From Candidatus Omnitrophota bacterium (GTDB lineage: Bacteria; Omnitrophota; Gorgyraeia; Duberdicusellales; 4484-171): a stretch of 64,000 nt of DNA. The position numbers were made by a program, and so were the translations under genes. Shown in pieces: positions 1-29,311 of this stretch (position 1 is the stretch's first letter; each line of letters opens with the position of its first letter). The stretch lies in assembly GCA_021735655.1 (NCBI GenBank), contig JAIPGM010000001.1:161728-225727 (forward strand), read 5' to 3'. The notes under the pieces were generated by a model that saw only the letters and a list, made by a program, of their open reading frames with translations, did no database searches and was not told where the DNA came from.

Positions 1-1
1 C

Positions 2-1240: not shown

Positions 1241-4200
1241 CCCTTGGATAATGGTAAGCCAGAAGTTCCGATGCCTTCTTCTTATTGGATCGATCATAGC
1301 CTTCTTCATGAAATTGATAATGTTTGGGCTAACTTGGATTGGATTAATCCCGGGCCAAGTTTAAGCATAGCTCGCCAGATTGAGAAAAATTTTAAGCCAG
1401 CACAAGAGCCAGGTTTTTTAAGAGTTAGCATAGATGCCTTTGGTCCGCTTAACGGATTTAAAAATCAAGTATTAGCTGAACATGAGCAGTATTTTGATTC
1501 CGAGGTTTATAAAGATTATCGAGCTGGCATAATTCATGCTATTGATAATCTTTGGCAACACGGCGGAAAGTACGGTGCCTTATTTTTGATGGCTCAGCTT
1601 AGAGGACGAACCGTACGCTTTACTTATTGTTTGCTAGATCGCGGTGATGGTTTTATTAATGACGATTACAACCATGTTCGTTTAGAAGAAGCCGTTCAGG
1701 CACATAGAACATTTAAACGAGCCGGCAAGAATGGTATGGGCCTTTATTATATGGCGATAAAGCCGGATTATTTTTCAATCACCGCGGTTAATTGCTACCG
1801 GGCTGTTGCCACAACTCAAGCTCACTATTGGGAAACTGGCTACACTAAAGAATGGCCGTTTTGCCCGCAACAAACTCCGGTTAACAAGGGGGTGCGGGTG
1901 ATTTCGGTAAAGGATGTAGCTTTAGGCCTTTTGCCATTTTCGAATATGCAGCCGTTAGATAATGGCCGTCGAACTGATGAAGAACGCCTGGATTTTATCG
2001 GATTTTTAGTTGAGTCATATTTAGAGGCTTTATTTACTTTCCGGAGGTTAAGAGCAAATAACAGCGAAGTAGCCGAGATGTATCTGCCAGCAATTTCCGA
2101 AACTGCCGTTAGAAAGAAACGAGCCAAATGGGTAGTTACAGCTGTTGAGGTTGCCCGTGAGGCATTTCAGGTTATGGCTCGAGCTGATTTTCGACATTCA
2201 TCCGGCTTAACCATTCGTTCAATCTTTGATTCAATTTTGGCTTCTGGCGGTCGCAACCAAGCAGCTAATGATCTAGGAGTCGATCGCGCTAGCCTTACTC
2301 GCTGGATGCATAGCTTACCTAATGATTTATTAGGTGGGTTAGATCCAGAATTAGCAGTCTTCAAACAAAGAATCCTTGATTTATTTGATGAAAACAATAC
2401 TCGACCCCTAGACAACGGTAAAGAAAATATAGATTTATTAGCGGTTACAGCAGTTAAAAGAGAGGACACCTCACCGTGGCTGGCGGGCCCTCTCTCTGCT
2501 GTAGCCCCTATATATATAGGTAAACAGCAGGGGCCGCTAGATAACGGCCGAGCGCCTTTGGATAATGGCCAGCCAGCTAACTTTTGGAAAGTTTTGCATT
2601 CTGGTATATACGTACTTCCGATATATTACACTCGACTTTTCGATACAGCTAAAGACGCAGGAATTGGAAAATATACTTATGTAGTGCCGTTTGTTCGTGA
2701 TCATGTATTGTCTTTAGGCCATCAAGCGATACTTTTCTTACCGTTTTCTTTGCAGTTACCTTGGTCGCAATCTCCTTATGATGCGGCTGATTGGCGTTAT
2801 TTTAATACTGATTATATTGATTGGGGGCTTATCCCTGAGGCTCAACCTTTTCTAGGTAAGTTCGATTATTACGGTCATTCACAGCGTAGCGTTGATTTTC
2901 GATCAATCCGGCCACGTGAATTATTAATCGGAAAGGCCGCCTTTCTTAATCTCAGAGACAATCGAGAAAAACAATACCGCCAGCGCTGGGAAGATTTTCA
3001 AAGGTTTGTTAACAATCAGCGAAGTAGAGGGCCGGAGTGGGATTTAACCCATCTTGGTCATTACCGGGCCTTCAATGATGTCTTGGGTAATGATTTTGGT
3101 TTATGGGTTCATGAAGGGATGTATTGCCCTAGGCAGGATACCCATCCAGATGTTATCAAGTACAACGTTGCTGAGCAAAATAAAAATATGCAATATTCAG
3201 ATTTAATTCAGTTCTATCAATACCAGCAATGGATTGCTTTCGGCCAGGCTCGCGATATGCTTGAAGGTTTGCGCAATATTGGTGTCTTTTATCTTTTAGA
3301 TAATCCTTTCTTTCATGCTAAGGGTGGTATTAATTTTTGGACCCAAAACATCATTTCAAGAGATAGGCATTATGAATTTTTTGATCGTTCACCCGGTGTA
3401 CCCGGAATCGGTAGTGACCCTGAACAATTCTGGACATCTTTGGTTCCTTGGAATTGGCCTAGATTAAGAGAGTTGGACTATGAACCTTTCTTAAACCCTT
3501 ATCATTATTATTTAGGTGATTTGGGCGCTCAGGGAGTTCGGGCTGATGCTATTCATTTTCTTTTTCCTTGGATTCATTGGGAACGCGGTCCTTATGCTGC
3601 TAATTTTCAGAGTTGGGAGTCCCCGGGTCATGATTTACTTTGGAGATTAGACAACGTTTTTAATTCTTATGGAGCTTTCAGGCTTGGCGAGTTACTTGGC
3701 CCGGGTTTTGAAAGTATTCAGAGAATGGGCTTTGATAATTATCACTGGCATTTCTATCGGATGTGGAAATGGGGTGGCGGACCTGATTTAAATCCGGGTT
3801 GGAACGCAAAAGCTTTAGAGTTACATGATGGGCCGCGGGTTTGTGTTGACCATGAACACGGGTTCTATCCTTATGCCGGACACGCTTATTTACGGCATCG
3901 TTTGGAGGGCCCGGGCGGTCTAAAAGAATTAAATAGTCGTTTCCTTTTAGGCAGTTCGGATATAGCTATGGTTTATGCCGGAGATGAAGTAGCCGACAAC
4001 TGGTGGATAAATAACCCTAATCTGCCTGAGTGGATGATGGATCGTAATTGGGCCACTCGAATGCCAATGCAGGGCGATCAGGATTTTGATCTTTCAGTAG
4101 CCTTGTCCATGCTTGAGCATCGCCGTTGGATTGGCCAGCGTCTAATTGAGCGGACGCCTTTGGATAATGGTAAGCAAGAGTTTAATCATCTTAGCTTGGT

Positions 4201-25200: not shown

Positions 25201-28200
25201 TCAAGTTCTGGATGTAGATGTTCTTGGCCATGACTATTGTCATATCGATAGAGTTGGCTTTGACGCTTGGCCTGATATGGCTATCGATCACTTTGAAATG
25301 GCCCGAATTGTTGATGAGCAGGATCAGCTATTACACACTTTTTGGTACGGTGTTTATTCAGAACGGATTCCCAATAGAGGTAGAGCTAGAATTTTAGGGG
25401 CGACTTTTACTGCCGGAGGTCACCTGCGACTTGGTAACGAAGATGTTTATCATGATGCGAACTTTCCCGAAGCTAGAGTAAATGTTACTTATATTGACGG
25501 AGAAGTAAGTGAGATATTAATTTATCAGGATGCTCAAGGCAACTCAGTAAATTATCATTATACTAAAAAGCAGATAGATAATTATAAGCGCAGAGTGCAA
25601 TATTATAATCTGCGCGGTCATGTATTCGAGCATGCTTTAAGAGTTGCCTTACCTTTTTTAAGCGACTGCCCTTTTGATTATCAAAAGCGCATTGGTGGTG
25701 AAGTTGATGGGTGGGTTGATGGTGAAGCTGAACCAAAGCCAGCTGATTCCAGATCACTTAAACGTCCAGATTTTACTAGTCCTTTTAGCTGGGCAATGAG
25801 TGAAGGGGTATTGTGCTATATTGATGCTAAATTCAATCTTAGAATTAAGTTTTTAATAGAATATCTAGAGGCAATTAAAGAGACTTTAAGAACTGATTAT
25901 TTTACTGATTGTGATGCCCCAGTTGAAACACATTTTGTAGGAAGAGTTATATTTGAGATAGTTTATTTAGGCAGAGTAAGTGAAGCTAATGTAGAGGCAA
26001 AGTTAGCTGGTCATCAGAGAAATTTTTCAGCTACCAATTCTGAGATGCTCACCTTGAAACCAGTTAGCTTTCTTGATGAGTACGGAGATAGGCTTAAGAC
26101 CGCTGGTCAGGATACTTTAGTAAGGTTTCTGAGACATCTGAGAGTTTTTCATTATAAGCCAGGTCGCAAGAAAGCCTTAGATAGCTATTTAGCCCAATTA
26201 GAACAGGATAAAATTCCCGAGATAGCCGATGAGCAGACTAATCTTTTTTCAAGGCCGCTGGATAATGGCCGAGAAAGATTATTGGTTAGTAGCGGTAATA
26301 GTCATTTAAAAAGTTTTCGTGAGGCGAAAGGTTTATTAGCAAAATTAAAATGTACAGACATTTTTGGGGTTGTCATGGGTTATCGCGCTGCCTTAGCTGA
26401 TAGAGATAATTATCAGAGAGTATTTGCTCGTGATTCTGTTTGGATGGGGTTAGCCGAAATGCTTTCCGGCTGTAAAGGTAGTTTAGCTTTAACATTAAGC
26501 GTATTAAAACATCATCAATGTCGGTACGGACAGAGACGCGGGGCTATTCCGAGTAACATTTCAAGGTATCATCGGGTAAGTTATGGGACAACTAGCCCAA
26601 GAATTGATCCAACCCTTCTTTATATTGTTAGTTCTGGCCAATATTATCGGTCCAGACCAGCCTATTTTCAAAAACAGTTTCTCGTTGAAAATTTATCGCC
26701 GCTACAAAAAGCTATAGCATATTTAGAAAGACAATGGGTTATGGATAACGGTTTATTGTTTATTCCGATTGCCGGAGATTGGGCTGATGAATATTTTCAA
26801 CAAGGCCTTGTTTTGTATGATGAAGTTTTATGGTATATGGCACTTTCAGAGTATGCCTACCTTTTAGCTGAAGATAATAATTCTAATTCAGAAGTTTATC
26901 AAGCTAAGGCTGCTTGGGTAAAGAATATAGTCAGATCCAAATTTTGGATAAATAAAAATCCCGGTCAAGGCAATTTGGGGCATTTCCGTCATTTTTTCAA
27001 TCAATTACAAAGCCCGAATCAGGCAGCGACATTTGGCTGTCCCTATGATAGCTTTGATGCTTTTGGTAATATTTTGGCAATTCTTTCCGGCGTGGCTACA
27101 GAGGAGCAAACTGCTCAGATAATTAAATATATTGATGTAATTTCAGAAAATAATCAGCCATTACTGGTGCCGGCACATTATCCGGCAGAAGAAGTTGAAC
27201 ATTTTGTTCACACAGGTGCTCCGTATCGGTATCAATTTAAGAATAATCCCGGGTGTTATCATAATGCTGGTTTATGGTCATGGTATACAGGTTTATATGT
27301 TGCGGCATTAGTGAAAGCCGGCCGATTAGACCGGGCGGCTAAATTTTTAGAAGGGGTACAGCTAGCCAATGAAGCTAAGGACTCAAATGGCCGGGGGTAT
27401 CATGAGTACCATACTAATATTCCCGGTCAATTGAGTAGGCCGGGTGGAGTTAGCAATTTAGGTGTCAGCGCTGCTGGTTATATAATAGCTCACCAAGCAT
27501 TTTTTAAAAATAAGATTGTTTTTGGTCAGAATCATCCTTTAGACAACGGCCGTCAGATGCCTGATTATTTTTCTCCGGTTGGAGACGTCAATGTAACTCT
27601 TAATAGTTCTTCAGAAAAAGCCCCCCTTGATAACGGAAGAAATTATTCCAGTTCGCCAATATTTCAAGAGACAACCTTTACCTATTGGTTAAGAGTGAGT
27701 TTATATTTATTAAGATTTTTGCTTAGTGCACCTTATTATTTTATTATTACTTTAGTTGTATCAAGAATGATGAAAGGAAAAAACATTTTATTTGTATCTT
27801 ACCGTATTAATGAATTTGCTTTAGATGGAGTATCTTTAGAAATAAAAGAGTGGCGAAATCTTTTATATCGATTGGGCGCACATATTTTTCTATTTTCTGG
27901 TCATAGCAAAATTGTTCAGGATGGAAGTATCACCGGTCAGGCTCCGGATTGCATTGAGAGTGATTTTCTTGCTGAACAGGCAACAAAAATAAGAGAGAAG
28001 ATTGAAAGAGAGGGAAAGCTAGATGCTGAAGATTTTGAATTAATTCATAGAGCAAAAGAGATAATTAAACGCAATCTGCGTAAGTGTATCTTGGAAAATA
28101 ATATTCACTACATTGTTTCGGAAAATGTATTTTGTCTACCGGGAAACCTCGCTCTTGCCGAGGCACTTATAGAACTTGCCGAAGAGTTTCCTCGGTTAGG

Positions 28201-29311
28201 TTTTATTTCTCATAACCATGATTTTTGGTGGGAACGATCCCGCTATTCAAAACATATTCGCACTGATTGTGCTAGTTACTTAGATAACCTTCATAATCGA
28301 ATCCGTCGCCAAACAGTCGTTGTTATAAATCAAGGCCAGTTGAGAAATATTTCAGATCATCTCGATGCTGGTTTGCACAAAGTATTTATTGTTCCGAACG
28401 TAAGAGATTTTTCCCGAAAGCCAAAAGTAGATCATTCGTGCGTAGCTAGGCTTAAGACTTATCTAAGACAGAGGCACGGGATTACTGAAGATTGCCATGT
28501 ATTTTTAGCACCGGTAAGGCCCGTTTATCGAAAGAATTTAGAACATGCTATTGATGGTTTGGCTAAAGTTCAGGAAGAAATGGGGGAACCTTTGCTATTT
28601 GTTGTAAGCCATAGCGCCCAAGATTCTCAACCAGGTTACGTTGACCAACTAAGAGCTCGGGCTGAAAGCCAGGGTCTTAAATTTGTTTATCTGGGTGAAG
28701 AAGTGCTTTCCGGTCAGTTTAGCTTAGAGACGATATATGCTTTTTGTGATATGGTCATTGTTACTTCTACCTGGGAGGGTTGGGGTAATGCCACGCTTGA
28801 AGCATTTTATTACCAGAGACCAGTTATTGTCTGGCCGTACCAGGCTTACCAAACCGAGATAAAGCCTGTAGGGCTAAGTTGCTTAGAGGCGCCTGAATTT
28901 TCTTCTGAGGTCATTACTTCGATAATTACGGTTTTACGATTTACTTGGTTGAGAAAAAGAATTGCTAGAGGGAATTATTGGTTAGCTAAATTACATTTTT
29001 CTTACCGAAGGCTTACAAGAGTATTTTTTAAAGTATTTAATAATTTAGAATCTGCCGAAACCAAAACACAACAATTTCCGCTTGATAATGGTAAAAAGGG
29101 TGAGGGTTCTAAACCAAAACAAAAATTATCTCCTTTCGAGAGATTTAAACAAGACATAGACGAGCTTCTTAGCAATCCCCAAATCAGGCAAGTAAGCGTA
29201 GACAGTATTCTTCAATTTTACGGCCCACGGCTGAAACGCGATGTTGTTGAGGCCCATCTTAAAAGTAAGGGTTTCCAACGCCGGGATAGAGACACCTATT
29301 TAATTCCCTGA
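2..29311 (+). CDS. Giant multi-enzyme polyprotein-like ORF (5' end open at window edge; at least 9,769 codons)
   Basis: Frame 2 has no stop codon from nt 2 to TGA at 29309-29311. The ORF track starts at the first ATG (nt 56), but codons 2-55 (RLDPVRDKLLYDYLLKRL) are also open and read as part of the same GT4-like domain. All overlapping other-frame and antisense ORFs are under 130 aa. It contains at least 15 recognisable, mutually unrelated folds separated by a recurring PLDNG peptide. Confidence 0.9.
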   Translation, partial: RLDPVRDKLLYDYLLKRLMREGMIGAAVDFEQMMQANSLSVNLAQVATRRLLADIAIYHTEEFALGLHLQTKGVPTFIMPPAINPFSYKNIPLADNFIRATMVKYGLDPNKFTVVEISRFDPFKGPLEAIQAFVRLFLDNPGLQNDLQFVYAGNMADDNPKGKRDFEKIDAYSRYLRKKFPKLRKALFLLGLGNKPGTVALNWAQRRSLRVGGQFARPFSRKEIGRLNGVEINALEVNALQQQLEMEKRDGRLVISLPRKIAIQPSSKEGFGLVAAEATGKGTLVIASLIGGLKAQLKDLLAQASWLGINYTPEEISQSLEVYDSMDSDQHRGVVFDVAYLERINLYQRLNQREFVLGLATSLRVAYELAHKNPDVYRELGLAARCQTLDKFITLANVENRLAAASLIVDNQQPLDNGKPEVPMPSSYWIDHSLLHEIDNVWANLDWINPGPSLSIARQIEKNFKPAQEPGFLRVSIDAFGPLNGFKNQVLAEHEQYFDSEVYKDYRAGIIHAIDNLWQHGGKYGALFLMAQLRGRTVRFTYCLLDRGDGFINDDYNHVRLEEAVQAHRTFKRAGKNGMGLYYMAIKPDYFSITAVNCYRAVATTQAHYWETGYTKEWPFCPQQTPVNKGVRVISVKDVALGLLPFSNMQPLDNGRRTDEERLDFIGFLVESYLEALFTFRRLRANNSEVAEMYLPAISETAVRKKRAKWVVTAVEVAREAFQVMARADFRHSSGLTIRSIFDSILASGGRNQAANDLGVDRASLTRWMHSLPNDLLGGLDPELAVFKQRILDLFDENNTRPLDNGKENIDLLAVTAVKREDTSPWLAGPLSAVAPIYIGKQQGPLDNGRAPLDNGQPANFWKVLHSGIYVLPIYYTRLFDTAKDAGIGKYTYVVPFVRDHVLSLGHQAILFLPFSLQLPWSQSPYDAADWRYFNTDYIDWGLIPEAQPFLGKFDYYGHSQRSVDFRSIRPRELLIGKAAFLNLRDNREKQYRQRWEDFQRFVNNQRSRGPEWDLTHLGHYRAFNDVLGNDFGLWVHEGMYCPRQDTHPDVIKYNVAEQNKNMQYSDLIQFYQYQQWIAFGQARDMLEGLRNIGVFYLLDNPFFHAKGGINFWTQNIISRDRHYEFFDRSPGVPGIGSDPEQFWTSLVPWNWPRLRELDYEPFLNPYHYYLGDLGAQGVRADAIHFLFPWIHWERGPYAANFQSWESPGHDLLWRLDNVFNSYGAFRLGELLGPGFESIQRMGFDNYHWHFYRMWKWGGGPDLNPGWNAKALELHDGPRVCVDHEHGFYPYAGHAYLRHRLEGPGGLKELNSRFLLGSSDIAMVYAGDEVADNWWINNPNLPEWMMDRNWATRMPMQGDQDFDLSVALSMLEHRRWIGQRLIERTPLDNGKQEFNHLSLVESNGEQKLYSASSLVISQRGVYLSPTSTGPKEVISQIQLSPSGIKVSGELTSQEPKSRPIDYRHSYEINFYFEKLAKAYGRGLFVGINDVQLWIRLSQALGDFLWGVLRLETGIFDIPDRKLRRLVIQEALYHEVMTSALGLSVANRGLREFFATILSVSHFCYLSEIAKDQDKLNYRLGILQALDRGLIQMSDSLAGLYRQIAESGSLPDPATLVKAVITHINEEERYHSDRRSFRDYVRTKSENFSGRFTVGNLTQAVLNDSALQLELQAEWTNFLGFLANSQTVARAWQPKIKFIRGPRGIKVINPQGVPDQGGYQFQLQSFRAIFDCLGLPNPLSEPAALNRYLGFLPEPPEYDSQAVNLPELNISQILPGVAVVYPDSLEANQLAVRRALYELMNFRVWKLAVEIRGALGTEDALFFDQHCQVHSFVDVAQGWMLDLNPQSPIVYDDVLPGGQAYEAPEQPDLAEHERLHQKAQAVFSKVWAITMNRFLRDQRMFGGEAVGLVGFTTTVPILYRYIQQCKHSEPEYSLQRPLNNGLGILQYLQSLRRSQETEAARRVSLDQGFGQLKSLLVEKLQSIDSTTLSIANLDQALNEDSQAIFLTLEQLREARFQAESFRNGQVSMCDLASLALAAASEEVFGQRHLVKIVVGYYRVDEQLYKKHYWVVIDETLLIDITYGQFDPDHLNRILVATVDDYLRLKLEYGTELEPLDNGKQTQVQPTCLEARWWNNYYPGVIEGTGIRPTARSLSFEQIEEVVCLLLLDQAGQELVAKIINRELPDVYPSVRRTALKAMVRFDHYELFGPKIITCLQDVVRDGAEMYQPFALYALAQTPAFNGPVANRFAEEALKGTLKPSPRKPTAAEKTALQEGLEPNTQAIRFKSRLASVEYLKGVLAQRQGWARVCLGTVPHFSRVSNRALINKFAAQVLAADKKLSSSSAQRRQKDKSEFWGLEQAEFIHPATGHEALVELANDPELSSSDESPLVDQILHQMEELGYVPILRPSKFQLTEPAQGQEAEIDREALWTKDAVLMISTKFGIVPVSSALANLKGGEFVSGYGKRGSFMIIPAAALNSKQQLSDIIPEVPIHVFPSGFLVINDQGVIRLRGTSHIDTSLGAIPIMARPESGQLMLIDPLLHQVARTHPRYRDHYQSVVQEDGVRFIDVPEPERHLNPANFGILPGGEIFMPYAPRTKQVLIEAGVNEQYIIMLPSEFNKYLPTLHVLAGSIGCLVAQAFHPVEKREPLDNGHEKEKRQTRSRAIDISTKGAEDLLFTELQTGSLVSLVVDGLEYWLSLDQGDEVWFDLYRPKDDIIGYIYFRNDAMPARKIANFGGPSIVPAYRGRHLSRVLYFVYFRYLWRNNYIPEEDCLTIDDRLALKLYHEAKKFYYDQDHTFTPFQIIPRAEKTKAAKPLDNGHDMVQKQLFELIKRKSDSIKTFLEPFEACLAYNGVLALLIRGRPDLSVKFLLKKIGSAEHWFLLAETVLGNHQFVVDISPQGKMFTDIEVLVVDCAEAGKINYLYEDYTVVSDQETENLLRALARQKGMNEFLHLVHQLPEEKWIGRLPDSDQSMPLDNGKLINEGSESSFSDITNSMRVTFVMPMYNEQQRLLPKTSDNPYGEDALRVKVSQFRELEQENPNFQWRLIAVDDGTPGFASAKCLEQILAEIDAQNREFNIYSKVFVVVITEQEKKLLGSRKGGAVLRGFQEALSHGWADYIGITDTDISSNVNQTKDLILALRKGAGVAIGSRRQSGAEARGIPLLGRVSTVIYNWCIRLILWPLFSIRDTQRGFKLFQKEVIVRILPYARDHHLSFDTELLLLSRLAGYQIAEVPIVWIDSAEATTLVMSKDAPAMLWRVIKQARHIFNNPFRGQKPLDNGRKINLSVRMLRKARLITVHVDAGDCPAALASAIDKLVSGLGQIQVSRSNIVLNTAHQNSPMDIVSSVGSLSTEQITTLFPEAVFLIAGGNVFKCLRNLVESLAVGSVNKRTVRIFVLYDYTYGQGSNYSPEQLAGEYYDYFSDMLSVYSDRFNLAVFYLAQNQFEQEIYGKNLSGPNLSLAIIEKEALASQVPLDNGRSLGELTAEGYNLKFLARSSDLRMTAHCRRDVSFNSYLYDYRLDPEHTYRQAQLVPLVARSVKENAFRKSSDWQYLPQHLKDLYDSGKVLMIASRAQAKAKPSRYSALVISGRTEAFSGRMGILLYDNRPIIVSILDKPFFIEAKGIGVAQGGFSSVHRRSGHRYEVTGAQRWQASLKEFTSLELERKISRFFGTADTPRALAAIVYKYPQMDQLISDSLTSQAERREAKEQLGDSLGIMLRLSPSSRRFAYNLEQRHIRMLGEASARLLCSYLPRVHTSPHFENLLEWAEGSEFSWSDYGDIEVLFAQSSYHWSRSLINARRILMSYLETSISWNVNLLKKLGIIETEAEFISEYLAGFVAYAETLDWITPEAIERLARVRSPKEFVDVMIFEVFALNAYNVFKKQTYETIVEVNQNNLVEELLSSALTIAQRQEKAQLVAELSGHIEAAKQGEAFLGCRIKKSQANQGVLTPVAQPVKNSSWANPFFDQFAYDLWHALLFDDHNLYDYVQAKWDYTVGEEGAFNVAGFYLLDAHYLGLLRSRTSMHNIPEKLYMCSAGYEMTANINKLLTAINRVSLCPQENTLVRSTVRNTLQHAISQRLSKWRLARALILVVESNGEVLAGDDSTYVYIMDSGPGMPIDAVMQGDWRRHSTMFGTDLKGFREYRDVEWILDSWSSKAGGPQRWDGLRGGLVEGALVPDNMPLFGTLFGMRLKHGLESSSKPLDNGRDSRSKGQNLGSLGTANKAPPVKTYNVESPFNRFSLRLLDLILTLSFLPLIILASLPIAIFVKYQIFKHKTGQSVIFKEQRFGYKGKPFIMYKFRTYIGDKDNPKAVLLSLRCLGLDELPQWWNILKGDLSIWGVRPKLQDDPSSDSDFQAHLDQINDLRKPGIISLATADVHAEMEHVSFSAEHRDRQIAFDLYEAEYWSFFLAFKIVVLNIFAQFKEAARIVFRNKILVIVAVHIPQAEQPKAGPILNILEYLSQRFPSKYYSVFVGFPDSGNPNLNLDLAIPQGLTIGLGEGDEYNIVNSQGLKLKFSWQFEGPDDLSQRTLKIGRHKLLMPLCAESSLPVFSGAKKKIPHKAIFIPFIAFRPCIVTCMNDLIFLNLPIIGLDTANGIFLFVPGSTQIDIVGTNKLLAVAINHSGRVMGSSFKDLDQVVPLDNGRQTISHFRSGEGQSRTGPTSRNFPLDNGGRNNEAIENNRFSFANRLGKVLVATVIGGISLGLLYLFGGLDWYTNIKNSIPLGAVIFWPGAFLDMVTGVLIWLISDIVGQYLNQGRSIRYRQSFKVGAWGVFQGLATHILYNLVELLPVVPLPLAQAMFRTIFTLFGGLTINIFYTVVVARARKASKAEGYSGLKERHKAYDVIFSKFIVAPIKTYFIVNLLPPATRVISEQAWEYLMKVFDAYLMNRKDSLFSSYILNLLSRKKPLDNGRSGQSDDQITLVSDNLVDSFRNVRQRLVVTVRRAQMSRLDFKPGIVSLQNMSPKVDYFCLSSISERQEDIQAYRQVPLVQDGASFGESYSEKYLIAQEPDTLVLVEGDEGLIASFDYSLCGCLVIRARNLFGMAHLSPFIDFSDEEMEIENDRIYYKYLSVLDYFKLQGYKDVQIFLSLNELLQGFKTLKARLWSAGDSDATNRQRVVDLLGIEARQRGIAVVDRRLRQKSEVLDVLGFPRKMISRQWLNRGTKPESFEIIFIETRDELPVAINSETQQPEIEYFQFAWPVVIPLDNGRRKLPNDDWIWVNGESLQFVGRDGLLITGMEGRGKSFLARKIYDSDDRWKVVSCGATHVCIRNELAERALLGRRLSENNLLYSRLSGTIPVELSLDVVVRLNWVMALDDLYREILGGLLADAGQRESLGLKIIDMSDLDVTRQWPKVLKFINASIVKPETYDKGNSLFQVPLDNGRRAQVEQEREFLIQTIINVFSQGEGLCLEPAQIEAAIAVDTSFDEYRIARNLPIVIGLKGNIYENCPLASKPLLLVFTGRGSITKPELIFNAYTQQGLVREASRLSRSMETKNAIWEIPYHGKKTAFILEDKNNWIALAAVYGPEDIYQQGLLICKGGDRITRLGTEISQAAGEADEEAIFSDYSRALVVARLLGFSILDGPDMMRRVNRRMSAMIAAAKETVADINEFAKAYPGYEAVDTHHILKPTTSNPVEEGGFPHTEWMVTSRGVVQGTVTALRWLRQVLDVGENRYPEEVVRFVKNLNIFGSPMSYIVQGFGDVGSGITKLFLTIFKIFGFQARGFNNRYFAIYRREGLPKPFLVEAREIVEVSPDALDLGRLLAMKSFDDQLQGAVVWIANPINPKTKEPVFGPADVDRVNQALAERGVTAIWGDQTVVNELIYQKATVLFLAATANVISELSQVERLQVKIISEGANNAVKPELREPLRKANVFYIPGELLNGGGIYASKEDIRHNHTDGSELIRQHRQYYYIHVTDEIDTLALHRMISFLEIWAESAGNFSFDLTVHVEKVAGRIFEAADNLVRTNNTRLRKFTQIDQKRTFDHQAGRPTLPWRHSLYEIAIEMAPMGILYHLRDVGRHLSLLNRFKVAIKEDGQIDNYHICRLRFALFELTKLGYYLKSNQRRRLIGLLPGIITDEKCDGLLRKDAMFCLAMAIRWQEEESCKSEVDRARKLYLGILQNPLESAQLHTWAQHCLYRIFGENYFRRISADFDRLNGVNLPKPLDNGRDSSVGITSEPLRILAELISNSYRTKALVEFLQPFLDCESVNYLQEEIAKHCQLPAWGVVSSSHYLDEGYFYYGLKSGIDRCLERGVMVENDGNRLYVTKDSEDTVKYSGLDETQENQWGIFIFPSEYFNQAINCGYAEAGLRLSHNRLGITTYPYFKSSLSLAPARFLIIDRSKADEHRHLEGQPKLKDKLQALTEAGLKVLWLPDSSGPFFDPDFQYAFGELLFSNDIPETNRFLFYPSADTQDLTKIIWWVLQSLRMSSIKNRLLHNMELARQFKKIGPFDNGRADFTTADEQIGNLFAEAVITGDNVLIETHWDAVAAKRGGSLNILEHAGLRITRSLALGIVPRAGEWPDRVETDQIILSSSRYGWIDSERDIEHLLSGFDQARLLNSFNLGHYYQGCHYRSFLSWLAVLKSSHFPAVIFHFIGELINSWGIKPAAKSDFPVLASRRDIFSFVSVPYVSDIEKLDLPVAVFFDGKLSSLRRGDSRKQPTLILAYWQALNGFIGFKEQIARETAEFQNTPLDNGRKEHDISDSTVIQWPLNVIVKDMRGLSKGEILAVVKTGKIFWGREIVGAIFSDRNIVFGKVVDDKFIVFDDWLIERIPGGLLEGLRRSILFLPYLGSILRNKTSSINKPLDNGKKYNYRQVLEMVDCFDSARLEAHLFRALGRVETEAVSIAGDIIRAARKFERITKAVKSLYRKTYGKLPNFTLAFDPSGQGMYGAYQEDDTAGFFDHIGVAPEDVLLEVGSGDGSISDFMAHMFGIKATGIEVWEPYYHYAVFLRDEAVRRRFIPEGKVDFLNNNLVDVDFSKYSLVYYAALGTRRKSELAARLLGVREKSRILIRGSPDELVEGIIASHPDFSLRKLEIEVNENLTGIKARVYTRETITSYQPVLDVPLDNGRKNNPQMVRARLAAFEKSIEGIVPRADPLYDHLIRFYQYPLNNLGEPDEETYVRNNTKEQERELLRFWAGHFGLPKNYGGHVTIGIGQAEYYAMYVASNRFPKAIFYISNQVDSLLYDTLQVLGIDQGRIKLIRSLENGEIDYGDLKRKIRENSSWPAVVCLTAGRFLGAVDDLGKVEGILGSLGLKHKHIHCSMSPLSIGQSFLEDAAKIDFQHGLDSMSLPLYHFVRCPMPGVIVLTRRKYLQNIACSQKAAEYVNSNDTTNSGSRSGHAPLYLWFATKVIGTKGFKAQAERAREVCVSIKALFDRYGYPCRFTAQKNTIIFEPPFYELRQKWGLLSHGQWSCFEIVPYLTPVEIAEFVSDLLGDHSQAVAAPVETVFPERIVYEPSPEVLDVLDQLEARIQILMERFLGFPANIAGNETSFAALSSLFKYTLRKKDVEGFRHEALKFFTDLYGLRYEDFYCGITAGGTWGNRVGLLVGRENFPGGILYYSQDSHYSIDKVARSLNMEVRKVASLSNGQIDYDELAEAIEENRGRPVIVNLNIGTTMKGAIDNPQRVIEILREQDVTDYYIHCDAALFGMILPFLEAAPKIDLANGVHSIAISGHKFLGLPMPSGIFMVRKNCARDRLITISDRLLTAQTGHVILYFWQAVASRGYEGCREEAMACVDNAQYLYYRLQERGLPSEVNPFSNITMFSRPSGSLIDTWQLAPCGDRVHVVAMQHVTRDKIDAFVQELTRDMQQGQIELASSMQPLDNGRRRKASLVPEVGLDELVEKHLGNLKLISSEYGKSVGMLSTILRRPDNESLQQRAEELRKIGPGRLALAADLGEFGVDSLKIGQKYGVGRRTAASWLVNNGFGDRVNSARYSRSRTLRRQKIAQEYEPIARLLDGEGNLLQTFYTHISWKEVSAYPFAVLDELEIQATEVLSYGGKQWGQFKGHAGHRARITLEWGYPIEVAMSSKRGVDQGSYRAMQLRTYQSTLFDREGELLDTAFFVFGYDEDLCRGTTKVVNYQLTKAGRISIFGDEQIQLIKHKQAWANLVAVDGKVVRATILDREGGNEVITYNFSRVYDENNRVIYTFTGGLEFKQSSVPPALLKSLARGRIEGIYLKGGRGNLTIGGRTWVVLSDYKNYPCRAYIEEGLVVRVEVLGEEGEAVFTKHSHRLYDREDNFVEVFYDSISPERLNQVGLCRSSPLIVTPSGELCLSGNRYTFENEGGSKAIVWIEPGVKFTRNRKPDGKAVRIDFYDQYMHYKHTRYAVRIYEDEGVLIDTFFGPGYAEKLKIFGDVIGFAQLDTLGSLNIGYTTHTFTKYGDPRHFVRFSLHQAQVLDVDVLGHDYCHIDRVGFDAWPDMAIDHFEMARIVDEQDQLLHTFWYGVYSERIPNRGRARILGATFTAGGHLRLGNEDVYHDANFPEARVNVTYIDGEVSEILIYQDAQGNSVNYHYTKKQIDNYKRRVQYYNLRGHVFEHALRVALPFLSDCPFDYQKRIGGEVDGWVDGEAEPKPADSRSLKRPDFTSPFSWAMSEGVLCYIDAKFNLRIKFLIEYLEAIKETLRTDYFTDCDAPVETHFVGRVIFEIVYLGRVSEANVEAKLAGHQRNFSATNSEMLTLKPVSFLDEYGDRLKTAGQDTLVRFLRHLRVFHYKPGRKKALDSYLAQLEQDKIPEIADEQTNLFSRPLDNGRERLLVSSGNSHLKSFREAKGLLAKLKCTDIFGVVMGYRAALADRDNYQRVFARDSVWMGLAEMLSGCKGSLALTLSVLKHHQCRYGQRRGAIPSNISRYHRVSYGTTSPRIDPTLLYIVSSGQYYRSRPAYFQKQFLVENLSPLQKAIAYLERQWVMDNGLLFIPIAGDWADEYFQQGLVLYDEVLWYMALSEYAYLLAEDNNSNSEVYQAKAAWVKNIVRSKFWINKNPGQGNLGHFRHFFNQLQSPNQAATFGCPYDSFDAFGNILAILSGVATEEQTAQIIKYIDVISENNQPLLVPAHYPAEEVEHFVHTGAPYRYQFKNNPGCYHNAGLWSWYTGLYVAALVKAGRLDRAAKFLEGVQLANEAKDSNGRGYHEYHTNIPGQLSRPGGVSNLGVSAAGYIIAHQAFFKNKIVFGQNHPLDNGRQMPDYFSPVGDVNVTLNSSSEKAPLDNGRNYSSSPIFQETTFTYWLRVSLYLLRFLLSAPYYFIITLVVSRMMKGKNILFVSYRINEFALDGVSLEIKEWRNLLYRLGAHIFLFSGHSKIVQDGSITGQAPDCIESDFLAEQATKIREKIEREGKLDAEDFELIHRAKEIIKRNLRKCILENNIHYIVSENVFCLPGNLALAEALIELAEEFPRLGFISHNHDFWWERSRYSKHIRTDCASYLDNLHNRIRRQTVVVINQGQLRNISDHLDAGLHKVFIVPNVRDFSRKPKVDHSCVARLKTYLRQRHGITEDCHVFLAPVRPVYRKNLEHAIDGLAKVQEEMGEPLLFVVSHSAQDSQPGYVDQLRARAESQGLKFVYLGEEVLSGQFSLETIYAFCDMVIVTSTWEGWGNATLEAFYYQRPVIVWPYQAYQTEIKPVGLSCLEAPEFSSEVITSIITVLRFTWLRKRIARGNYWLAKLHFSYRRLTRVFFKVFNNLESAETKTQQFPLDNGKKGEGSKPKQKLSPFERFKQDIDELLSNPQIRQVSVDSILQFYGPRLKRDVVEAHLKSKGFQRRDRDTYLIP
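1256..1951 (+). other. Polyprotein unit S1 (232 aa): GHKL/Bergerat ATPase-like (anti-sigma-factor kinase-like)
   Basis: IIHAIDNLWQHGGKYG resembles an N-box and LLDRGDGF resembles a DxGxG G1 box. Confidence 0.35.
1967..2404 (+). other. Polyprotein unit S2 (146 aa): small helix-turn-helix protein
   Basis: GGRNQAANDLGVDRASLTRWMHSL resembles the Fis/NtrC-type C-terminal HTH. Confidence 0.4.
2420..2533 (+). other. Polyprotein unit S3: 38-aa inter-junction peptide, followed by a tandem junction (PLDNG-RA-PLDNG, 2534-2569)
   Basis: KENIDLLAVTAVKREDTSPWLAGPLSAVAPIYIGKQQG lies between sites 2405-2419 and 2534-2548. Confidence 0.6.
2570..4156 (+). other. Polyprotein unit S4 (529 aa): GH77 4-alpha-glucanotransferase (amylomaltase)-like
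   Basis: Four stretches follow the remembered MalQ order. GIGKYTYVVPFVRDHVLSLGHQAILFLPF...SQSPYDAADWRYFNTDYI matches GIGdfg...LP...SPY..S.f..Np. YQQWIAFGQARDMLEGLRNIGVFYLLDNPF matches fQW.f..Qw...GI.ligDlp. GVRADAIHFLF matches lRiDH. LGELLGPG and LHDGP follow. Confidence 0.55.
4172..5806 (+). other. Polyprotein unit S5 (545 aa): unknown function
   Basis: Bounded by site 4157-4171 and the degenerate PLNNG site 5807-5821. I recognise no family motif. Confidence 0.3.
5822..6337 (+). other. Polyprotein unit S6 (172 aa): transglutaminase/papain-like Cys-His-Asp module (candidate cysteine peptidase)
   Basis: GQVSMCDLASLALAAA (Cys codon 6083-6085), VVGYY, HYWVVIDE (His 6197-6199) and LLIDIT (Asp 6233-6235). 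This matches the remembered transglutaminase-like core G.C..fA ... GY ... HaW.ev ... W...D.t. Confidence 0.4.
6353..7939 (+). other. Polyprotein unit S7 (529 aa): HEAT-like N-terminal region plus guanidino-modifying-enzyme fold (amidinotransferase/arginine deiminase/DDAH-like)
   Basis: The N-terminal part (PSVRRTALKAMVRF...) is helical-repeat-like. The C-terminal part has GTSHIDT, NPANFGILPGGEIFMP and a terminal HVLAGSIGCLVAQ that resembles the catalytic Cys motif of this superfamily. Confidence 0.4.
7955..8440 (+). other. Polyprotein unit S8 (162 aa): GNAT acetyltransferase-like
   Basis: IGYIYFRND...IVPAYRGRHLSRVLYFVYF resembles GNAT motif A (V.P.yRG.G....L); the size is typical. Confidence 0.35.
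8456..8920 (+). other. Polyprotein unit S9 (155 aa): second Cys-His-Asp papain/transglutaminase-like module
   Basis: FEACLAYNGVLALL (Cys 8540-8542), AEHWFLLAE (His 8633-8635) and FVVDIS (Asp 8684-8686). The order and spacing match S6. Confidence 0.35.
8936..9826 (+). other. Polyprotein unit S10 (297 aa): GT2 polyprenyl-phosphate glycosyltransferase (DPM1/ALG5/GtrB-like)
   Basis: Carries VTFVMPMYNE, LIAVDDGTPG, RKGGAVLRGF, ITDTDIS, RDTQRGFKLF and SFDTELLLL, the classic GT-A GT2 motif series. An internal Met (MRVTFVMP) sits where a free-standing gene would start. Confidence 0.8.
9842..10417 (+). other. Polyprotein unit S11 (192 aa): unknown function
   Basis: Bounded by junction sites 9827-9841 and 10418-10432; no motif recognised. 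Confidence 0.3.
10433..12604 (+). other. Polyprotein unit S12 (724 aa): unknown, C-terminal GHKL-like ATPase motif
   Basis: The C-terminal VVESNGEVLAGDDSTYVYIMDSGPGMP resembles a D.G.G ATP-lid region. The rest is unrecognised. Confidence 0.25.
12620..13915 (+). other. Polyprotein unit S13 (432 aa): bacterial sugar transferase (phosphoglycosyl transferase, WbaP/PglC-type) plus unknown C-terminal domain
   Basis: A hydrophobic re-entrant helix (LLDLILTLSFLPLIILASLPIAIFV) is followed by FKEQRFGYKGKPFIMYKFRT and LRCLGLDELPQWWNILKGDLSIWGVRP. This is the hallmark KFRTM...DELPQ..NVL.G.MS.VGPRP series. Confidence 0.8.
13931..13999 (+). other. Polyprotein unit S14: 23-aa inter-junction peptide
   Basis: RQTISHFRSGEGQSRTGPTSRNF lies between sites 13916-13930 and 14000-14014. 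Confidence 0.6.
14015..14722 (+). other. Polyprotein unit S15 (236 aa): polytopic integral membrane protein (possibly Mpv17/PMP22-like)
   Basis: At least four long hydrophobic stretches: VLVATVIGGISLGLLYLFGGL, GAVIFWPGAFLDMVTGVLIWLI, AWGVFQGLATHILYNLVELL and IFTLFGGLTINIFYTVVVA. Confidence 0.6.
14738..15616 (+). other. Polyprotein unit S16 (293 aa): unknown, with a CheD-like Cys/His motif
   Basis: DYSLCGCLVIRARNLFGMAHLSPF (about 15080-15150) resembles the CheD deamidase motif LGSCV.v...D....gG.aH.mLP. Confidence 0.25.
15632..16141 (+). other. Polyprotein unit S17 (170 aa): P-loop NTPase, HPr kinase C-terminal-like
   Basis: LQFVGRDGLLITGMEGRGKSFLARKI contains a Walker A (GxxGxGKS) in an HprK-like context. 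Confidence 0.4.
16157..18496 (+). other. Polyprotein unit S18 (780 aa): Glu/Leu/Phe/Val dehydrogenase-like core flanked by unknown and helical-repeat regions
   Basis: LLICKGGDRI is a K-G-G catalytic-Lys-like motif and TSRGVVQGT follows it. YIVQGFGDVGSGITKLF matches QGFGNVG, ISEGANNAVKPE matches ANgP.t, and GGGIYASKEDIRHN is also present. Confidence 0.5.
18512..20419 (+). other. Polyprotein units S19 (281 aa, 18512-19354), S20 (237 aa, 19370-20080), S21 (108 aa, 20096-20419): unknown functions
   Basis: Delimited by junction sites 18497-18511, 19355-19369 (PFDNG), 20081-20095 and 20420-20434. No family motif recognised. Confidence 0.3.
20435..21205 (+). other. Polyprotein unit S22 (257 aa): class I SAM-dependent methyltransferase
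   Basis: Motif I VLLEVGSGDGSISDF, then ATGIE, and an acidic post-II region (FLNNNLVDVDFSKYSLVYY). Confidence 0.65.
21221..23479 (+). other. Polyprotein unit S23 (753 aa): tandem group II PLP decarboxylase (histidine decarboxylase-like); N-terminal copy lacks the PLP lysine
   Basis: Copy B (about 22330-23479) has YYSQDSHYSIDK, NIGTTMKGAIDN, HCDAALFG and HSIAISGHKFLGLPMPSGIFMVRK (Lys codon 23042-23044). Copy A (21221 to about 22320) aligns, but has DSMSLPLYHFVRCPMPGVIVLTRR at the equivalent place. Confidence 0.75.
23495..26254 (+). other. Polyprotein unit S24 (920 aa): HTH-like N-terminus, six ~95-100-aa internal repeats, C-terminal PD-(D/E)xK nuclease-like motif
   Basis: The repeats occupy about 23880-25600 and open with RLLDGEGNLLQTFY, TLFDREGELLDTAFF, RVYDENNRVIYTF, RLYDREDNFVEVFY, RIYEDEGVLIDTFF and RIVDEQDQLLHTFW. 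The C-terminal motif is LKRPDF...17 aa...YIDAKF. The N-terminal YGVGRRTAASWLVNNG is HTH-like. Confidence 0.4.
26270..27535 (+). other. Polyprotein unit S25 (422 aa): (alpha/alpha)6-barrel glycoside hydrolase, GH100 neutral invertase / glycogen-debranching GDE_C-like
   Basis: NYQRVFARDSVWMGLA, RGAIPSNIS, LYDEVLWYMAL and YHNAGLWSWYTGLYVAALVKAGRLDRAAKFLE match remembered neutral invertase/GDE_C motifs (dY.qvFiRD; YHNGG.WP...W....A.iK.gR). Confidence 0.6.
27551..27622 (+). other. Polyprotein unit S26: 24-aa inter-junction peptide
   Basis: RQMPDYFSPVGDVNVTLNSSSEKA lies between sites 27536-27550 and 27623-27637. Confidence 0.6.
27638..29077 (+). other. Polyprotein unit S27 (480 aa): membrane-anchored GT4 glycosyltransferase
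   Basis: An N-terminal hydrophobic helix (WLRVSLYLLRFLLSAPYYFIITLVV) is followed by ILFVSYRINEFALDGVSLE and the E-x7-E region TSTWEGWGNATLEAFYYQRPVIV. Confidence 0.7.
29093..29311 (+). other. Polyprotein unit S28: 72-aa C-terminal tail unit and TGA stop
   Basis: KKGEGSKPKQKLSPFERFKQDIDELL...RDTYLIP follows the last junction (29078-29092). Function unknown. Confidence 0.4.

What the first reader, a model, noticed from the sequence alone, without database searches (positions are those of the whole stretch)
1241..29092. A 29-fold recurring P-L-D-N-G-[R/K] junction peptide conserved at the amino-acid level, not the nucleotide level
Seen in sequence: 27 exact PLDNG sites plus PLNNG and PFDNG, all in frame, with non-conserved flanks. 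Codon usage at the sites is free. Pro uses CCT 14, CCG 8, CCC 6 and CCA 1. Leu uses all six codons (TTA 8, CTT 7, TTG 4, CTA 3, CTC 3, CTG 3). Asp uses GAT 24 and GAC 4. Asn uses AAT 20 and AAC 9. Gly uses GGC 15, GGT 9, GGA 3 and GGG 2. Selection is therefore on the peptide, not on a DNA or RNA element. The next residue is R or K in 24 of 29 sites. Sites fall at fold boundaries and not inside multi-domain units; for example, none lies between the two decarboxylase copies of S23. Established knowledge: Asn-Gly is the most succinimide-prone dipeptide. Asn-cyclisation backbone cleavage drives intein C-terminal cleavage, FlhB/YscU NPTH autocleavage, SPATE autotransporter Asn-Asn cleavage and nodavirus capsid Asn-Ala maturation. 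Inference: PLDN|G could be (a) an autocatalytic Asn-cyclisation cleavage site with the adjacent Asp assisting, (b) the recognition site of a dedicated protease, (c) a bacterial translational stop-go element, or (d) merely a fixed beta-turn linker. The first three would be new.
Basis: partly seen in the sequence, partly recalled or inferred. Interest (0 to 1): 0.93.

Follow-up and report, generated by a model that had tools for sequence, protein, structure and literature searches.

The report
Junction peptide in bacterial giant polyprotein
One bacterial reading frame of more than 9,750 codons strings about 30 complete enzymes, membrane proteins and regulators together, and every joint carries the same five-residue peptide (PLDNG); this peptide is most likely the cutting mark that releases the individual proteins, a virus-style polyprotein strategy not yet described for bacteria.

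Summary
There are 27 PLDNG sites plus PLNNG and PFDNG, all in one ORF (nt 2-29311, more than 9,769 aa, open at the window's left edge). Composition predicts 0.008 such sites, and the other 22 ORFs have none. Codon use at the sites matches the rest of the ORF and the flanks are unrelated, so selection acts on the peptide.

The sites mark whole-protein boundaries. Free-standing Omnitrophota homologues of one segment start and stop within 0-8 residues of its two junctions. All family hits lie inside segments. An AlphaFold model puts three motifs in low-confidence coil.

Two other metagenomic polyproteins share two junction-bounded modules with this ORF but use variants of the motif: SLDNGG[RK] (15 sites) and [FE]TNGG/SLDNGA. 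Only Asn-Gly is invariant. In one relative a twin-arginine (Tat) signal peptide begins 10 residues after a junction, and a sigma-70 factor and a multi-pass membrane glycosyltransferase sit in the same chain.

Best reading, probability about 0.55: these are processing sites of a bacterial polyprotein, read by a dedicated endopeptidase that co-evolves with them. No protease was found. Spontaneous Asn cyclisation, ribosomal stop-go and an uncut linker are less likely. The two papers on Omnitrophota giant proteins that I read do not mention such junctions.

The parts
2..29311 (+). Giant ORF (at least 9,769 codons; open at the window's left edge; TGA stop at 29309-29311). It encodes about 30 junction-separated segments of 7 to 925 aa.
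   Evidence: the same gene lies on Logan contig SRR12088349_9023
1241..1258 (+). junction 1, PLDNGK
1952..1969 (+). junction 2, PLDNGR (upstream edge of the helix-turn-helix-like module)
2405..2422 (+). junction 3, PLDNGK (downstream edge of the helix-turn-helix-like module; aligns with SLDNGG in P0002)
2534..2551 (+). junction 4, PLDNGR (first of a tandem pair)
2555..2572 (+). junction 5, PLDNGQ (second of the tandem pair, 7 aa after junction 4)
4157..4174 (+). junction 6, PLDNGK (end of the 534-aa 4-alpha-glucanotransferase segment)
5807..5824 (+). junction 7, variant PLNNGL
6338..6355 (+). junction 8, PLDNGK
7940..7957 (+). junction 9, PLDNGH
8441..8458 (+). junction 10, PLDNGH
8921..8938 (+). 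junction 11, PLDNGK
9827..9844 (+). junction 12, PLDNGR
10418..10435 (+). junction 13, PLDNGR
12605..12622 (+). junction 14, PLDNGR (about 26 aa before the position that aligns with residue 1 of the solved sugar-phosphate transferase PglC)
13916..13933 (+). junction 15, PLDNGR
14000..14017 (+). junction 16, PLDNGG (28 aa after junction 15; followed by a multi-pass membrane segment)
14723..14740 (+). junction 17, PLDNGR
15617..15634 (+). junction 18, PLDNGR
16142..16159 (+). junction 19, PLDNGR
18497..18514 (+). junction 20, PLDNGR
19355..19372 (+). junction 21, variant PFDNGR
20081..20098 (+). junction 22, PLDNGR
20420..20437 (+). junction 23, PLDNGK
21206..21223 (+). junction 24, PLDNGR
23480..23497 (+). 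junction 25, PLDNGR (13-18 aa after the end of the histidine/serine decarboxylase match)
26255..26272 (+). junction 26, PLDNGR (aligns with the Met starts of the free-standing homologues P0011-P0017)
27536..27553 (+). junction 27, PLDNGR (aligns with the stop codons of the free-standing homologues)
27623..27640 (+). junction 28, PLDNGR (29 aa after junction 27; a transmembrane helix follows)
29078..29095 (+). junction 29, PLDNGK (before the 73-aa C-terminal module shared with P0002)
1964..2416 (+). Segment 3: 151-aa all-helical module containing a sequence that resembles a helix-turn-helix. It is 63-65% identical to P0002 aa 668-825 and is also present in P0006.
26267..27547 (+). Segment 27: 427-aa protein related to glycoside hydrolase family 100 (invertase-like). 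It corresponds end to end with free-standing Omnitrophota proteins.
29090..29308 (+). Segment 30: 73-aa C-terminal module, 50% identical to an internal, junction-bounded module of P0002 (aa 368-441).

Best explanation
The ORF is a bacterial polyprotein. An operon's worth of complete proteins is translated as one chain of more than 9,700 residues. They include glycosyltransferases, glycoside hydrolases, a PglC-type sugar-phosphate transferase, a dehydrogenase, a PLP decarboxylase, a methyltransferase, small membrane proteins and helix-turn-helix-like modules. Each boundary carries an exposed P-L-D-N-G-[R/K] peptide.

Shown here: the motif is under peptide-level selection. It lies at whole-protein boundaries, in hydrophilic stretches that the model does not fold. 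Homologous modules in other polyproteins are bounded by a lineage-specific variant that keeps only Asn-Gly.

Inferred: the peptide is the recognition site of a dedicated endopeptidase that releases the individual proteins. The protease may be encoded elsewhere in the genome or in the unseen N-terminal part of the ORF. The scissile bond is probably Asn|Gly, that is P1 Asn as in legumain-type enzymes. That cut would leave stable Gly N-termini. Cleavage after Gly would expose Arg or Lys, which are destabilising N-terminal residues in bacteria (my own knowledge of the N-end rule). Tandem junctions and the 7-43 aa inter-junction peptides are read as remnants of lost modules.
For: 1. There are 29 sites against 0.008 expected, and none in 11,146 aa of neighbouring proteins.
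2. Synonymous codons are free and match the ORF background; the flanks are random. The same holds for the SLDNGG sites of P0002, where Ser uses both TCN and AGT codons and Leu both TTA and CTN.
3. Segments equal whole proteins. The Met starts of P0011-P0017 align 0-8 aa after one junction and their stops 0-4 aa before the next. The 534-aa segment 6 matches a 529-position MalQ profile. The ends of the PglC, decarboxylase, invertase and mannosylglucosylglycerate synthase matches fall within about 10-50 aa of junctions. No family hit spans a junction.
4. In the AlphaFold2 model, motif residues 47-51, 474-478 and 503-507 fall within or directly beside stretches with pLDDT below 50 (residues 31-48 and 472-518). 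The 10 residues on each side of a junction are more hydrophilic than the ORF mean (-0.72 and -1.19 against -0.24).
5. Segments 3 and 30 recur in P0002 in a different order, bounded by junctions in both proteins. P0002 has 15 [SN][LF][DN]NGG sites (mostly SLDNGG). P0006 has SFDNGG, SLDNGA, FTNGG and ETNGG.
6. Some products need their own ends or location. In P0002 a Tat signal (DRRDFLK) begins 10 aa after a junction. P0002 also holds a sigma-70 factor and a multi-pass membrane glycosyltransferase. In the window, segments 15, 17 and 29 have transmembrane helices near their starts.
7. West-Roberts et al. propose cleavage of Omnitrophota giant proteins but state that cleavage points are unknown.
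Against: No peptidase family was detected in any of the 30 segments or the 22 neighbouring ORFs by Pfam, NCBIfam or PDB sequence search. The only modules shared with P0002 and P0006 are two small helical modules, not a protease. Cleavage itself is not shown, and no proteomic data were available. Only three carriers of the Asn-Gly junction were found in very large collections. Co-occurrence with a protease family therefore could not be tested. P0001 and P0005 are multi-enzyme giants with no recurring motif, so fusion without marked junctions also exists.
Confidence: 0.55

Rival explanations
1. The chain is not cut. PLDNG is a fixed turn or linker, or a tag bound by some partner such as a scaffold, a chaperone or a modifying enzyme. 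The chain works as one beads-on-a-string mega-enzyme, as the 2026 Omnitrophota preprint implicitly assumes.
For: No protease was found. Other giants (P0001, P0005) fuse enzymes without any motif. The same window holds genuine multi-domain fusions without junctions: a 1,284-aa ORF with three radical SAM-SPASM units and a 1,052-aa ORF with two B12-radical SAM units. The preprint treats such proteins as single polypeptides.
Against: A passive linker does not need five invariant residues at 29 sites while synonymous positions drift. The Tat signal after a junction, the sigma factor and DNA-binding-like modules tethered to multi-pass membrane proteins, and the exact match of segments to whole free-standing proteins all argue for release. 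By my own knowledge of peptide chemistry, an exposed Asn-Gly is the most deamidation-prone dipeptide and so a poor choice for a permanent linker.
Confidence: 0.2
2. Autocatalytic cleavage. The junction Asn cyclises to a succinimide, helped by the preceding Asp, and breaks the Asn-Gly bond without any enzyme. This would be a minimal asparagine peptide lyase.
For: Asn-Gly is the only part of the motif invariant in all 29 + 15 + 4 junctions across three lineages. An acidic residue precedes the Asn in most sites. No protease was found.
Against: All known asparagine peptide lyases cleave only in cis, inside a folded domain that positions an Asp or Glu (PMC3207474). Here the flanks are unrelated and the model shows coil. 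The Asp is replaced by Asn or Thr in several junctions. By my own knowledge, free Asn-Gly mainly deamidates to Asp/isoAsp, and chain cleavage is favoured with Asn-Pro instead. Chemistry alone would not require the lineage-specific P/S, L/F and G/GG positions.
Confidence: 0.08
3. Co-translational separation. The nascent PLDNG peptide makes the ribosome release the upstream chain and continue, a bacterial analogue of viral 2A stop-go.
For: The conservation pattern resembles 2A, with a short conserved C-terminal motif and variable upstream sequence, and both contain Asn and Gly. No protease is needed.
Against: No D(V/I)ExNPGP motif is present. The single NPGP (aa 431) lies inside a segment. One junction follows another by only 7 residues, too short a nascent chain to engage the exit tunnel. 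The motif differs between related lineages although the ribosome core is conserved. By my own knowledge, 2A is inactive on bacterial ribosomes.
Confidence: 0.04
4. The motif is a scar of a DNA-level process, such as cassette insertion or a recombination site, or the translation of an RNA element, with no role as a peptide.
For: Modules are shuffled as junction-bounded units between polyproteins.
Against: All six Leu codons and all four Pro and Gly codons are used. Third-position identity among sites is 45%, and only 2 of the 15-nt motif sequences recur, each twice. Amino acids are kept while codons drift. P0002 shows the same pattern.
Confidence: 0.02

Closest known systems
Viral polyproteins cut at short consensus sites by a cognate protease (picornavirus 3C at Q|G, potyvirus NIa, coronavirus Mpro and PLpro)
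   Same: One long ORF encodes many complete proteins. A short peptide recurs at each boundary in exposed linkers, and the site sequence differs between lineages.
   Different: This is a cellular, metabolic gene set (glycan and sugar enzymes, transporters nearby). There are no virus hallmark genes and no relatives in viral contigs. No protease has been identified. The junction core Asn-Gly matches none of the classical viral protease sites known to me.
Omnitrophota giant 'multi-enzyme metabolic' proteins (bioRxiv 10.1101/2023.11.21.568195 and 10.64898/2026.06.07.730766)
   Same: Many unrelated enzyme families tile one polypeptide. The closest homologues of the segments come from Omnitrophota. 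The first paper speculates on cleavage by C39 or S8 domains.
   Different: Term searches of both papers found no mention of a junction or cleavage motif. The first paper states that cleavage points are unknown. No C39 or S8 domain occurs in this window. The related contig of P0002 is labelled Planctomycetia.
Legumain / asparaginyl endopeptidases (MEROPS C13) and their Asn|Gly sites in plant cyclotide and seed-protein precursors
   Same: These enzymes have a strict P1 Asn with a small P1' residue (often Gly) and little requirement elsewhere. Their multi-copy precursors have units that start with Gly and end with Asn.
   Different: No C13 domain was found here. Those substrates are small secreted peptides, not cytoplasmic enzymes. 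The resemblance is recalled from knowledge and was not tested.
Double-glycine leader cleavage by C39 peptidase domains
   Same: P0002 (NGG) and P0006 (NGG, NGA) junctions end in GG or GA like double-glycine sites. C39 domains are common in Omnitrophota giants.
   Different: The window's sites have a single Gly followed by Arg or Lys. No conserved leader-like hydrophobic pattern lies upstream. No C39 domain occurs in the window.
Asparagine peptide lyases (MEROPS N1-N11: nodavirus and tetravirus coats, YscU/FlhB NPTH, Tsh, inteins)
   Same: Cleavage would be C-terminal to an invariant Asn, with an acidic residue nearby.
   Different: Those enzymes are folded self-cleaving domains with one site each (PMC3207474). 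Here 29 sites sit in unstructured, unrelated contexts, and there is no NPTH or HN[CST] motif.
Cellular repeat polyproteins (polyubiquitin cut after GG, prohormones cut at dibasic sites, nematode polyprotein allergens)
   Same: A short consensus recurs between units and is read by a dedicated processing protease.
   Different: Those precursors repeat one unit or a few peptides. Here about 30 unrelated full-size proteins are joined.

Membership tests
Protease-processed polyprotein (viral type) | A single ORF encodes several complete, otherwise free-standing proteins | tested here: met
   One ORF of at least 9,769 codons. Segment 27 matches free-standing homologues end to end. Family hits are confined to segments.
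Protease-processed polyprotein (viral type) | A short consensus peptide at each boundary, in an accessible linker | tested here: met
   29 sites. Coil with pLDDT below 50. Hydrophilic flanks.
Protease-processed polyprotein (viral type) | A cognate protease is encoded | tested here: inconclusive
   None was detected in the window. However, the ORF is truncated at its 5' end and the rest of the genome is unavailable. P0002 carries a Peptidase_M23 segment scoring just under the Pfam cut-off.
Protease-processed polyprotein (viral type) | The products are actually separated | not testable with these tools
   This needs proteomics or expression experiments.
Asparagine peptide lyase (MEROPS N families) | A folded self-cleaving domain places an Asp or Glu next to the scissile Asn | tested here: not met
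   The flanks are unrelated. The motif lies in low-confidence coil. There are no NPTH or HN[CST] motifs. The requirement is taken from PMC3207474.
2A / stop-go peptides | D(V/I)ExNPGP consensus at the separation point | tested here: not met
   The regex finds none. The one NPGP lies inside segment 2, away from any junction.
C39 double-glycine processing | GG, GA or GS at positions -2/-1 of the site, and a C39 peptidase domain | tested here: not met
   The window's sites read N-G-[RK], with GG at only one site. No PF03412 hit. The relatives P0002 and P0006 do show GG or GA.
Legumain-type (C13) processing | An invariant P1 Asn at the sites, and a C13 peptidase in the genome | tested here: inconclusive
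   Asn is invariant in all 48 junctions of three lineages. No C13 domain occurs in the window, and the genome is not available.
Omnitrophota multi-enzyme giant proteins (class 1 of 10.64898/2026.06.07.730766) | Many distinct Pfam families tile one very long polypeptide with none dominating | tested here: met
   GT1, GH77, GT2, Bac_transf, ELFV_dehydrog, a methyltransferase, Pyridoxal_deC and GH100, each once or twice.
Omnitrophota multi-enzyme giant proteins (class 1 of 10.64898/2026.06.07.730766) | The organism belongs to phylum Omnitrophota | tested here: inconclusive
   The best homologues are Omnitrophica/Omnitrophota proteins. The only related genome contig is labelled uncultured Planctomycetia. 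No marker gene lies in the window.

The most novel reading that the evidence does not exclude
The junction needs no protease. A five- or six-residue Asn-Gly peptide would by itself separate neighbouring proteins, either by enzyme-free Asn cyclisation or by a ribosome-level stop-go event in a bacterium. That would be a minimal, portable, genetically encoded self-separating element for prokaryotes. The failure to find any protease in the polyprotein, and the absolute invariance of Asn-Gly across three lineages, leave this open.
Probability: 0.12. Interest if true: 0.96.

Novelty: new variant of a known kind. Interest (0 to 1): 0.82.

Why it matters
If the junctions are processing sites, some PVC/Omnitrophota bacteria express operon-scale gene sets as virus-like polyproteins. 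Bacterial gene expression is not thought to use that mode at this scale.

The finding would also supply the missing cleavage points for Omnitrophota giant proteins. These 10-150 kAA ORFs could then be split informatically into real products for annotation and structure prediction. It would also change how claims of the "largest proteins" and of membrane topologies with hundreds of helices are read.

The motif makes the question directly testable by N-terminomics or reporter fusions. It also points to an undiscovered Asn-Gly-specific protease, or to a self-separating peptide, with clear use as a tool for stoichiometric multi-protein expression in bacteria.

Tried and rejected
1. A search for a protease with Pfam (E up to 1), NCBIfam and PDB sequence search found none. 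It covered all segments of 43 aa or more (two 28-29 aa inter-junction peptides were screened only within larger pieces) and all neighbouring ORFs. Simple catalytic-motif greps gave only isolated chance hits.
2. More carriers were sought. Word-indexed protein searches with both halves of the ORF gave 4 and 1 hits. An exhaustive HMMER search with the shared segment-3 module gave only P0002 and P0006. The genome-contig scan found only the P0002 contig. Two metagenome scans and two viral scans found nothing.
3. Walking beyond the window's right end failed. Five look-ups of ORFs in the last 7 kb of the window were not on record.
4. The fold of the conserved module (segment 3) was modelled at pLDDT 66. 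It is all-helical and has no significant PDB match.
5. An out-of-frame TAATG inside GAT-AAT-GG was considered as a hidden stop/start. It occurs at 18 sites against 19.5 expected from codon bias, so it was rejected.
6. An altered genetic code was considered. Neighbouring ORFs end in TAA, TAG and TGA, so it was rejected.
7. Depletion of non-junction NG dipeptides is not convincing: 19 against 27.7 expected in the giant ORF, and 30 against 34.4 elsewhere.
8. Literature searches for PLDNG, and for Omnitrophota together with polyprotein, found nothing relevant.
Full report
**Observation**

The window holds one ORF listed as 56..29311 (9,751 aa). Its frame is in fact open back to nt 2. The gene therefore runs off the left edge, and its first segment, which resembles trehalose synthase TreT, is N-terminally truncated.

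Six-frame translation finds 27 PLDNG, all in this frame. With PLNNG and PFDNG there are 29 sites between nt 1241 and nt 29092.

- Composition predicts 0.008 PLDNG.
- The other 22 ORFs (11,146 aa) contain none.
- There are no near-miss copies inside the giant ORF.
- Codon choice at the sites does not differ materially from the rest of the ORF (chi-square p = 0.03 to 1).
- The 30-nt flanks are about 27% identical, and only two 15-nt versions occur twice.
- Neighbouring genes use all three stop codons, so the 29-kb stop-free frame is real under the standard code.
- The same gene is present on an independent Logan assembly contig.

**What the sites separate**

Cutting at the motif gives 30 segments of 7-925 aa. 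The family hits are a GT1/TreT-like protein, a 4-alpha-glucanotransferase, a GT2, a PglC-type sugar-phosphate transferase, an ELFV-type dehydrogenase, a methyltransferase, a histidine/serine decarboxylase, a GH100-like hydrolase and a mannosylglucosylglycerate-synthase-like GT1. All lie within single segments, and about half the segments have no known family.

Segment lengths match whole proteins. The 534-aa segment 6 corresponds to a 529-position MalQ profile. The decarboxylase, invertase and GT1 matches end 3-18 aa before the next junction.

The sharpest test is segment 27. Seven free-standing homologues (P0011-P0017, 519-546 aa; the two that carry a source name are Omnitrophica/Omnitrophota) are 41-43% identical to it by BLASTP. 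Their initiator Met aligns 0-8 residues after the upstream PLDN|G. Their stop codon aligns 0-4 residues before the downstream PLDNG.

An AlphaFold2 model of aa 8688-9243 (mean pLDDT 64.6) folds the hydrolase core. It leaves all three motifs it contains (model residues 47-51, 474-478, 503-507) in or directly beside stretches with pLDDT below 50. The ten residues on either side of a junction are markedly more hydrophilic than the ORF average.

Segments 15, 17 and 29 carry transmembrane helices close to their starts, as free-standing membrane proteins do.

**Relatives**

Word-indexed searches returned only other giant proteins.

P0002 is 5,131 aa and sits on a 28.8-kb contig labelled uncultured Planctomycetia. 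It shares just two modules with the window's ORF:

- Segment 3 (151 aa, 63% identical).
- The C-terminal 73-aa segment 30 (50% identical).

In both proteins each module is bounded by junctions, but the modules stand in a different order.

P0002's junctions read [SN][LF][DN]NGG followed mostly by R, K, Q or S. There are 15 of them, again with free codon use, including both Ser codon classes.

An exhaustive profile search with the segment-3 module found one more carrier, P0006. It is a 2.5-kb metagenome contig fragment with SFDNGG, SLDNGA, FTNGG and ETNGG.

Across 48 junctions in three independent sources only Asn-Gly is invariant. The surrounding positions are uniform within a lineage and differ between lineages.

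P0002 also shows why separation is needed:

- A twin-arginine signal (DRRDFLK plus a hydrophobic stretch) begins 10 residues after a junction (Pfam TAT_signal, E = 0.0065).
- A sigma-70 factor forms the last segment.
- A 1,033-aa multi-pass membrane GT2 forms another segment.
- One segment is an M23 peptidase scoring just under the Pfam cut-off.

Two Omnitrophica giants (P0003, P0004) lack the Asn-Gly motif. They carry [AT]SS[SP][PLVF] peptides next to the edges of MFS, TreT, LpxC and APH modules. Two others (P0001, P0005) have no recurring peptide.

**Mechanism**

The most economical reading is a polyprotein whose junction peptide is recognised by a dedicated endopeptidase. A single trans-acting reader explains two things. 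It explains why five or six residues are held constant at every boundary of one genome while codons drift. It also explains why all sites of another lineage carry a different version.

The invariant Asn-Gly suggests P1 = Asn and P1' = Gly, as in legumain-type enzymes. That comparison rests on my own knowledge and was not tested. Cleavage at Asn|Gly would give Gly N-termini. Cleavage after Gly would expose Arg or Lys in 24 of 29 products, and these are destabilising N-terminal residues in bacteria (my own knowledge of the N-end rule). The scissile bond is therefore inferred, not shown.

No protease was found in the window by Pfam, NCBIfam, PDB sequence search or motif greps. It may lie in the unseen 5' part of the ORF or elsewhere in the genome.

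Tandem junctions occur in the window (PLDNGRAPLDNGQ) and in P0006 (SFDNGGRSSRSLDNGA). With the 28-, 29- and 43-aa inter-junction peptides, they are read as leftovers of module loss during shuffling.

**Rivals**

- *Enzyme-free Asn cyclisation.* This fits the Asn-Gly invariance. However, all ten known families of asparagine peptide lyases cleave in cis within a fold that positions an acidic residue (PMC3207474). Here the context is unstructured and unrelated, and the Asp is replaceable by Asn or Thr. Free Asn-Gly mainly deamidates (my own knowledge).
- *2A-like ribosomal event.* This lacks the 2A consensus. It would have to work 7 residues after a previous event. It would also have to change between lineages that share a conserved ribosome.
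- *Uncut linker or binding tag.* This cannot be excluded without proteomics. It does not explain the strict conservation, the Tat signal or the sigma factor.
- *DNA or RNA element.* This is excluded by the codon data.

**Comparison and novelty**

The closest functional analogue is viral polyprotein processing. The closest relatives by descent are the multi-enzyme giant proteins of Omnitrophota. One paper on these speculates that C39 or S8 domains cleave them but states that cleavage points are unknown. The other treats them as single polypeptides. Term searches of both found no mention of a junction motif. Searches for PLDNG and for Omnitrophota together with polyprotein found nothing relevant.

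I rate this a new variant of a known kind: a site-marked polyprotein, but in a bacterium, at operon scale, with a new junction peptide. It would be categorically new if the peptide turns out to be self-separating.

**Limits**

- No cleavage is demonstrated.
- Only three carriers of the Asn-Gly junction are known.
- The taxon is not fixed (Omnitrophota or another PVC lineage).
- The transmembrane-helix calls are crude hydropathy estimates.
- The AlphaFold alignment had only 8 sequences.

Noticed in passing
window 1-60: The giant ORF's frame has no stop back to nt 2. The gene therefore continues upstream of the window. Its first segment starts in the middle of a TreT-like glycosyltransferase (profile position about 175 of 412).
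   Followed up: partly
window 29352-63561: Downstream lies an Opp-type peptide ABC importer, then an amine oxidase, two ABC-2 exporters, five glycosyl- and methyltransferases and seven radical-SAM ORFs. Several of the radical-SAM ORFs are internal fusions: 1,284 aa with three radical SAM-SPASM units and 1,052 aa with two B12-radical SAM units. A PqqD-like protein follows at 63268-63561. The set looks like peptide (RiPP)-type maturation machinery. None of these fusions carries the PLDNG junction.
   Followed up: partly
window 2417-2566, 13928-14011, 27548-27634: Short peptides of 43, 7, 28 and 29 aa lie between two junctions. They may be remnants of lost modules. Given the neighbouring radical-SAM and PqqD genes, they could conceivably be released peptides.
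   Followed up: no
P0002 (contig CAZFML010000001.1; L002 463-12904): A second polyprotein has 15 [SN][LF][DN]NGG junctions (mostly SLDNGG). One segment starts with a Tat signal, one is an M23 peptidase scoring just below the Pfam cut-off, one is a 1,033-aa multi-pass membrane GT2, and the last is a sigma-70 factor.
   Followed up: partly
P0003 and P0004 (Omnitrophica giants): A different recurring peptide, [AT]SS[SP][PLVF] (for example ASSSPL, ASSSF), sits next to the edges of MFS, TreT, LpxC and APH modules. This may be another lineage's junction peptide, or merely Ser-rich linkers.
   Followed up: partly
alignment A3 (window 26117-27784 against P0011-P0017): The free-standing GH100-like homologues carry an insertion of about 95 aa that is absent from the window's segment 27. 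In several of them the precomputed annotation lists PF00381 (PTS HPr).
   Followed up: no
window 37946-40813: The 1,155-aa ABC ATPase ORF has a C-terminal extension of about 950 aa with no Pfam match.
   Followed up: no
window 1964-2416 and 29090-29308: The only modules conserved among the Asn-Gly-type polyproteins are two small helical modules. One contains a sequence resembling a helix-turn-helix (GRNQAANDLGVDRASLTRW). A model (pLDDT 66) gave no significant PDB fold match.
   Followed up: yes
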